From an archaeon (lineage in GTDB: Archaea > Nanobdellota > Nanobdellia > SCGC-AAA011-G17 > GW2011-AR17): 64,000 bases of DNA. The stretch spans positions 10,788 to 74,787 of the forward strand of contig JBDRJY010000004.1 in the NCBI GenBank assembly GCA_043814545.1. Direction: 5' to 3'. A report on this DNA, generated by a model with database tools, continues below. The stretch itself is not shown here.

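What the first reader, a model, noticed from the sequence alone, without database searches (positions are those of the whole stretch)
24457..60295. 36-kb glycan or lipid modification island with an exceptional density of radical SAM enzymes
**Content**
- Ten radical SAM genes lie within 35.8 kb. By ORF coordinates they total 13,119 nt, about 37% of the island.
- Six have an N-terminal B12-binding-type Rossmann domain: 25599, 30687, 32234, 49960, 53195 and 54636.
- Two are SPASM-like (35420, 41786), one is YgiQ (51633) and one is BioB-like (48237).
- They are interleaved, often with overlapping stop and start codons, with seven glycosyltransferases (GT4 x2, GT2 x2, GT9, GT-C x2).
- Also present are a Wzx flippase, a carbamoyltransferase, an SDR epimerase, a membrane methyltransferase, an FrhB-like protein and a CooS-like protein.

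**Why it stands out**
- The B12-type paralogues fall into at least two N-terminal sequence types. 25599 and 49960 share LSACLK.(K/A)GHK, while 30687 and 54636 share PPIGL.Y. They are therefore not recent tandem copies.
- Class B radical SAM enzymes perform C-methylations and other difficult C-C or C-H chemistry on sugars, lipids and peptides. GDGT ring synthases are one lipid-acting example of B12-domain radical SAM enzymes.
- Their operonic coupling to GT and flippase genes argues for heavily tailored cell-surface glycans or glycolipids.
- For a small, presumably cofactor-poor genome this is a large investment. It also implies dependence on external cobalamin, iron-sulfur assembly and a low-potential reductant.
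- I do not know of a characterised pathway with this composition.
Basis: partly seen in the sequence, partly recalled or inferred. Interest (0 to 1): 0.8.

Follow-up and report, generated by a model that had tools for sequence, protein, structure and literature searches.

The report, continued
Full report
**1. Checking the observation**

The ORF map reproduces every coordinate in the finding. Pfam finds a Radical_SAM domain above the gathering score in ten ORFs:

| ORF | Strand | Extra domains or family |
|---|---|---|
| 25599-27149 | - | B12-binding (PF02310) |
| 30687-32069 | - | B12-binding |
| 32234-33586 | + | none detected |
| 35420-36448 | - | SPASM |
| 41786-42784 | - | SPASM |
| 48237-49244 | - | BATS, PRK06267 |
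| 49960-51384 | + | B12-binding |
| 51633-53129 | - | YgiQ |
| 53195-54649 | - | B12-binding |
| 54636-56054 | - | B12-binding |

- Together they are 13,119 nt of 35,839 nt (36.6%).
- PF02310 is above threshold in five of the six claimed ORFs. 32234 gives only E=0.33 when its N-terminal half is scanned alone.
- YgiQ passes its NCBIfam cut-off. 48237 just reaches PRK06267 (305.2 vs 305).
- All seven glycosyltransferases are confirmed, as are Wzx, the carbamoyltransferase, the SDR, the membrane-anchored methyltransferase, the FrhB-like protein and the CooS-like protein.
- The YfhO assignment of 28308 is borderline by HMM (28.9 vs 28.5 bits). It is supported by 12 hydrophobic segments and by a 782-aa YfhO protein at the equivalent place in relatives.
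- Eight of the ten rSAMs have CX3CX2C. 32234 has CX3CX3C and 48237 has CX4CX2C.
- No other ORF of at least 100 aa in the window has the motif. Ten or more rSAMs among 33 genes has P between 8e-16 and 3e-8 for an assumed genomic frequency of 0.5-3%. The frequency range is my assumption.

**2. Organism and setting**

- The first 14 kb looks like a ribosomal-protein operon (a run of small same-strand ORFs, not individually scanned) and ends in SecY. A lone 5S rRNA lies at 24108-24224.
- The best named SecY hits are Woesearchaeota and Nanoarchaeota at 67-74% identity.
- An 86% SecY homologue lies on the same 599-kb contig (GCA_054040335.1) that carries a syntenic copy of the island.
- The island is therefore chromosomal, in a Woesearchaeota-type DPANN archaeon.
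- GC content shows no clear break at the borders.

**3. The island is mosaic**

blastn against the 86% relative (L001) shows colinearity from 37920 to 62562, with three window-specific segments:

- 51389-53201: YgiQ and a 100-aa ORF.
- 49265-49915: the 2H phosphoesterase.
- 44327-47577: the CooS-like protein, a 115-aa ORF and the methyltransferase. The PF03706 gene next to it is only 50% identical to its counterpart, against about 70-90% for the neighbouring genes.

A 94% relative (L172) is colinear from 57270 to 51616, which includes YgiQ, and then carries unrelated genes. These four genes are therefore variable cargo, not pathway core. The PRK06267 enzyme is conserved only in the closest relative. 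The left third of the island (24.5-37.9 kb) lies beyond the DNA I could fetch for that relative.

**4. The class-B-like paralogues**

- They are 22-36% identical to one another.
- Four of the six have their own orthologues in other DPANN genomes:
  - 49960: 61% and 53%.
  - 25599: 53% and 41%.
  - 54636: 52-61%.
  - 53195: 49-62%.
  - 32234: 48-73%.
  - 30687: best-hit homologues of only 27-39%.
- None reaches an NCBIfam equivalog cut-off.
- The best models are HpnJ, BchE and Sden_1168. These are mostly families that do rearrangements rather than C-methylation.
- The closest solved structure by sequence for 30687, 32234, 49960, 53195 and 54636 is AprD4, the radical SAM 1,2-diol dehydratase of apramycin biosynthesis. 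The cobalamin methylases TokK, TsrM and CysS score lower.
- A 2026 review states that AprD4 sits in the B12-rSAM similarity network but does not bind cobalamin. It lists HpnJ and BchE among enzymes whose transformations are 'other or unknown' (PMC12931638).
- The inference from 'B12 domain' to 'cobalamin dependence' is therefore not secure.

**5. The 32234 family and a conserved module**

- The family has 244 hits at E<=1e-20; the 120 best are 48-73% identical, and the named ones are Nano-, Woese- and Pacearchaeota. None has a precomputed B12-domain hit.
- The GCPYSCSYYC (CX3CX3C) motif is invariant in 16 aligned members.
- An AlphaFold model (pLDDT 91.2, pTM 0.91) matches AprD4 (6FD2) over the full chain with TM 0.81/0.81 and E 8e-26. 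The next matches (MgmA, CysS, TsrM, TokK) have TM at most 0.65.
- In the window, 32234 overlaps an SDR gene by 28 nt.
- Related loci carry the same cassette:
  - GT2 (233 aa) - rSAM - SDR (identical 28-nt overlap) - YfhO (782 aa).
  - GT2 - rSAM - SDR - B12 rSAM - PMT_2 - carbamoyltransferase.
  - PMT_2 - GT2 - rSAM.
- In 80 metagenome loci anchored on this family:
  - The SDR orthologue is directly downstream in 22 of 65 loci with enough sequence, 17 of them with the same overlap.
  - It is downstream in 9 of the 10 loci of at least 55% identity with enough downstream sequence.
  - A GT2a-type GT2 of at least 40% identity lies within 4 kb in 24 of 65 loci.
- AprD4 works with the NADPH-dependent reductase AprD3 to deoxygenate a sugar (PMC5461906).
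- The best-supported reading is a dehydratase plus reductase pair that makes a deoxy sugar. It is wired to a polyprenyl-phosphate-sugar synthase and a GT-C transferase.

**6. The 53195 (HpnJ-related) family**

- HpnJ is the best NCBIfam model for all 15 members tested, and none reaches the cut-off.
- The family has an invariant N-terminal motif, NPPWPG..G.R...RWPH.R, and two invariant cysteines beyond the SAM cluster.
- A scan of GTDB representative genomes found 305 relatives. They occur in DPANN, Bathyarchaeota, Anaerolineae and other Chloroflexota, Omnitrophota, PVC, KSB1 and Clostridia.
- In many bacterial loci and some Bathyarchaeota loci a GT4 gene lies upstream and a GT2 gene downstream on the same strand (usually both, sometimes only one), often with a methyltransferase. 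This lies inside Wzx-type polysaccharide loci containing SDRs, UDP-sugar dehydrogenase, DegT aminotransferase, PGM/PMM and PMT_2.
- In DPANN it sits in multi-rSAM glycan clusters. In L003, L009 and L012 a PF03706 protein follows directly; in L011 that protein is in the same locus with a methyltransferase gene between.
- HpnJ is implicated genetically in converting the lipid-anchored glucosamine of bacteriohopanetetrol into a cyclitol ether. The reaction has not been reconstituted (PMC13459092).
- The family is therefore a sister of HpnJ that works in glycan contexts. A radical sugar-ring transformation is the most likely chemistry, but which one is open.

**7. Architecture and proposed mechanism**

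- For GT2b (57761) the five best NCBIfam hits are all polyprenyl-phosphate sugar synthases (AglJ, Dol-P-hexose transferase, PpgS, PgfS, ArnC); for GT2a (27146) the three best are (AglJ, ArnC, PgfS), with Dol-P-hexose transferase and PpgS at ranks 6-7. All are below cut-off. GT2b has two C-terminal transmembrane segments, like GtrB and ArnC.
- Each GT2 is paired with a GT-C enzyme: YfhO-type 28308 with GT2a and PMT_2-type 58667 with GT2b.
- This is the layout of bacterial multi-component transmembrane glycosylation systems (PMC5836110, PMC8035078). From general knowledge, the Arn pathway gives a precedent for modifying the lipid-linked sugar before it is flipped.
- Between the two modules lies a Wzx-centred core. 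It holds GT4b, GT9, a rare (alpha/alpha)6 plus beta-sandwich protein with a carbohydrate-active fold, and SPASM-2 coupled by a 4-nt overlap to an FrhB-like Fe-S/flavin protein that could feed electrons.
- The carbamoyltransferase and class-B rSAM F recur in the same loci as GT2b orthologues in several DPANN genomes (adjacent or one to three genes apart).
- Nanoarchaeia locus L009 contains 12 of the island's families and ends at MTAP, as the window does.
- Proposal: sugars are loaded on a polyprenyl phosphate, tailored by the rSAMs, the SDR, the carbamoyltransferase and the methyltransferase, flipped, and transferred by the GT-C enzymes onto a Wzx-exported oligosaccharide or another surface acceptor.
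- Still inferred: the carrier, the acceptor, the substrate state (lipid-linked, NDP-linked or polymer) and the individual reactions.

**8. How unusual is it?**

- Against chance it is very unusual.
- Within the lineage it is not. DPANN loci anchored on the HpnJ-related gene contain 7 rSAMs in 16.7 kb (L010), 6 in 12 kb (L015), 6 in 21 kb (L014) and 4 in several others. That is 0.19-0.50 per kb, against 0.28 per kb in the window. Bacterial loci have one to three.
- This sample is biased, because every locus contains at least one rSAM by construction.
- Literature searches found no description of such loci.

**9. Rivals**

- **Lipid head-group tailoring** (HpnJ/calditol analogy). It is not excluded, but the polysaccharide-type neighbours across phyla argue against it.
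- **Chance juxtaposition.** It explains YgiQ and perhaps PRK06267, but not the conserved, translationally coupled pairings.
- **Aminoglycoside-like secondary metabolite.** It lacks cyclitol synthase, aminotransferase and resistance genes, and it does not explain the polyprenyl-type GT2s and the GT-C enzymes.
- **RiPP cluster.** It lacks any conserved precursor.

**10. Verdict**

- This is a new variant of a known kind: a surface-glycan locus with GT2/GT-C decoration modules, but with an unprecedented load of uncharacterised radical SAM tailoring enzymes.
- It is recurrent in DPANN archaea, and two of its families are well enough defined to be tested directly.
- Interest is about 0.55. It is notable for rSAM enzymology and for DPANN surface biology. 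It is less exceptional than first thought because it is lineage-typical, part of the rSAM count is cargo, and the cobalamin argument does not hold as stated.

Noticed in passing
window 24108-24224 (+): A lone 5S rRNA gene (62.6 bits) lies 230 nt before the island, with no 16S or 23S gene in the window. It overlaps the predicted GTG start of ORF 22744-24135 (-), so that start is probably wrong.
   Followed up: no
window 44330-45868 (-): A CooS-like Ni-CO-dehydrogenase homologue of only 512 aa, about 120 aa shorter than CooS. Its best PDB hit is CODH-IV 6ELQ at 306 bits, and it is below the TIGR01702 cut-off. It sits in a DPANN archaeon, in a 3.25-kb segment absent from the 86% relative. Its function is unclear, since no acetyl-CoA synthase partner is in the window.
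   Followed up: partly
L090 (ENA contig k141_45051; protein P0132): The cassette GT2 - AprD4-like rSAM - SDR - B12 rSAM - PMT_2 - carbamoyltransferase occurs on a contig whose protein NCBI assigns to 'Candidatus Falkowbacteria' (a CPR bacterium). That protein is 67% identical to the archaeal 32234. This is either DPANN-CPR gene transfer or a binning error.
   Followed up: no
window 61705-62517 (+) and 34465-35430 (+): An MTA phosphorylase (above the TIGR01694 cut-off) flanks the rSAM-rich block, and a purine nucleoside phosphorylase (above the PRK08202 cut-off) lies within it. MTAP is also at the edge of the syntenic loci L001 and L009. This may be salvage of 5'-deoxyadenosine or MTA produced by the many SAM enzymes, or it may be coincidence.
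   Followed up: partly
window 51386-51688 and L172 beyond position 5655: The junction just downstream of YgiQ is a recombination point. The 94% relative is colinear up to window position 51616 and then carries a different rSAM (weak DUF5131 hit), a 361-aa ORF and a nucleotidyltransferase.
   Followed up: partly
window 39102-40523 (+): This protein family is very rare, with 64 representatives at E<=1e-3 among 1.84 billion clustered proteins. It still gives a confident (alpha/alpha)6-barrel plus beta-sandwich model (pLDDT 92). It is an uncharacterised family with a carbohydrate-active fold, coupled to a GT9.
   Followed up: yes
window 48237-49244 (-): The PRK06267 BioB/HmdB/PylB-like rSAM has a CX4CX2C motif instead of CX3CX2C. 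The family is named only 'hypothetical protein' in NCBIfam.
   Followed up: no
window 19403-24135: Upstream of the island lie a PriS-like primase (434 aa), a PHP-domain protein, a weakly PRTase-like protein and a 463-aa ORF with no Pfam hit. These appear unrelated to the island.
   Followed up: no
A1 alignment (53195 family): Two cysteines beyond the SAM-cluster motif (C293 and C313 in 53195) and an N-terminal NPPWPG..G.R...RWPH.R motif are invariant across archaeal and bacterial members. They may form an auxiliary site or supply catalytic residues.
   Followed up: no
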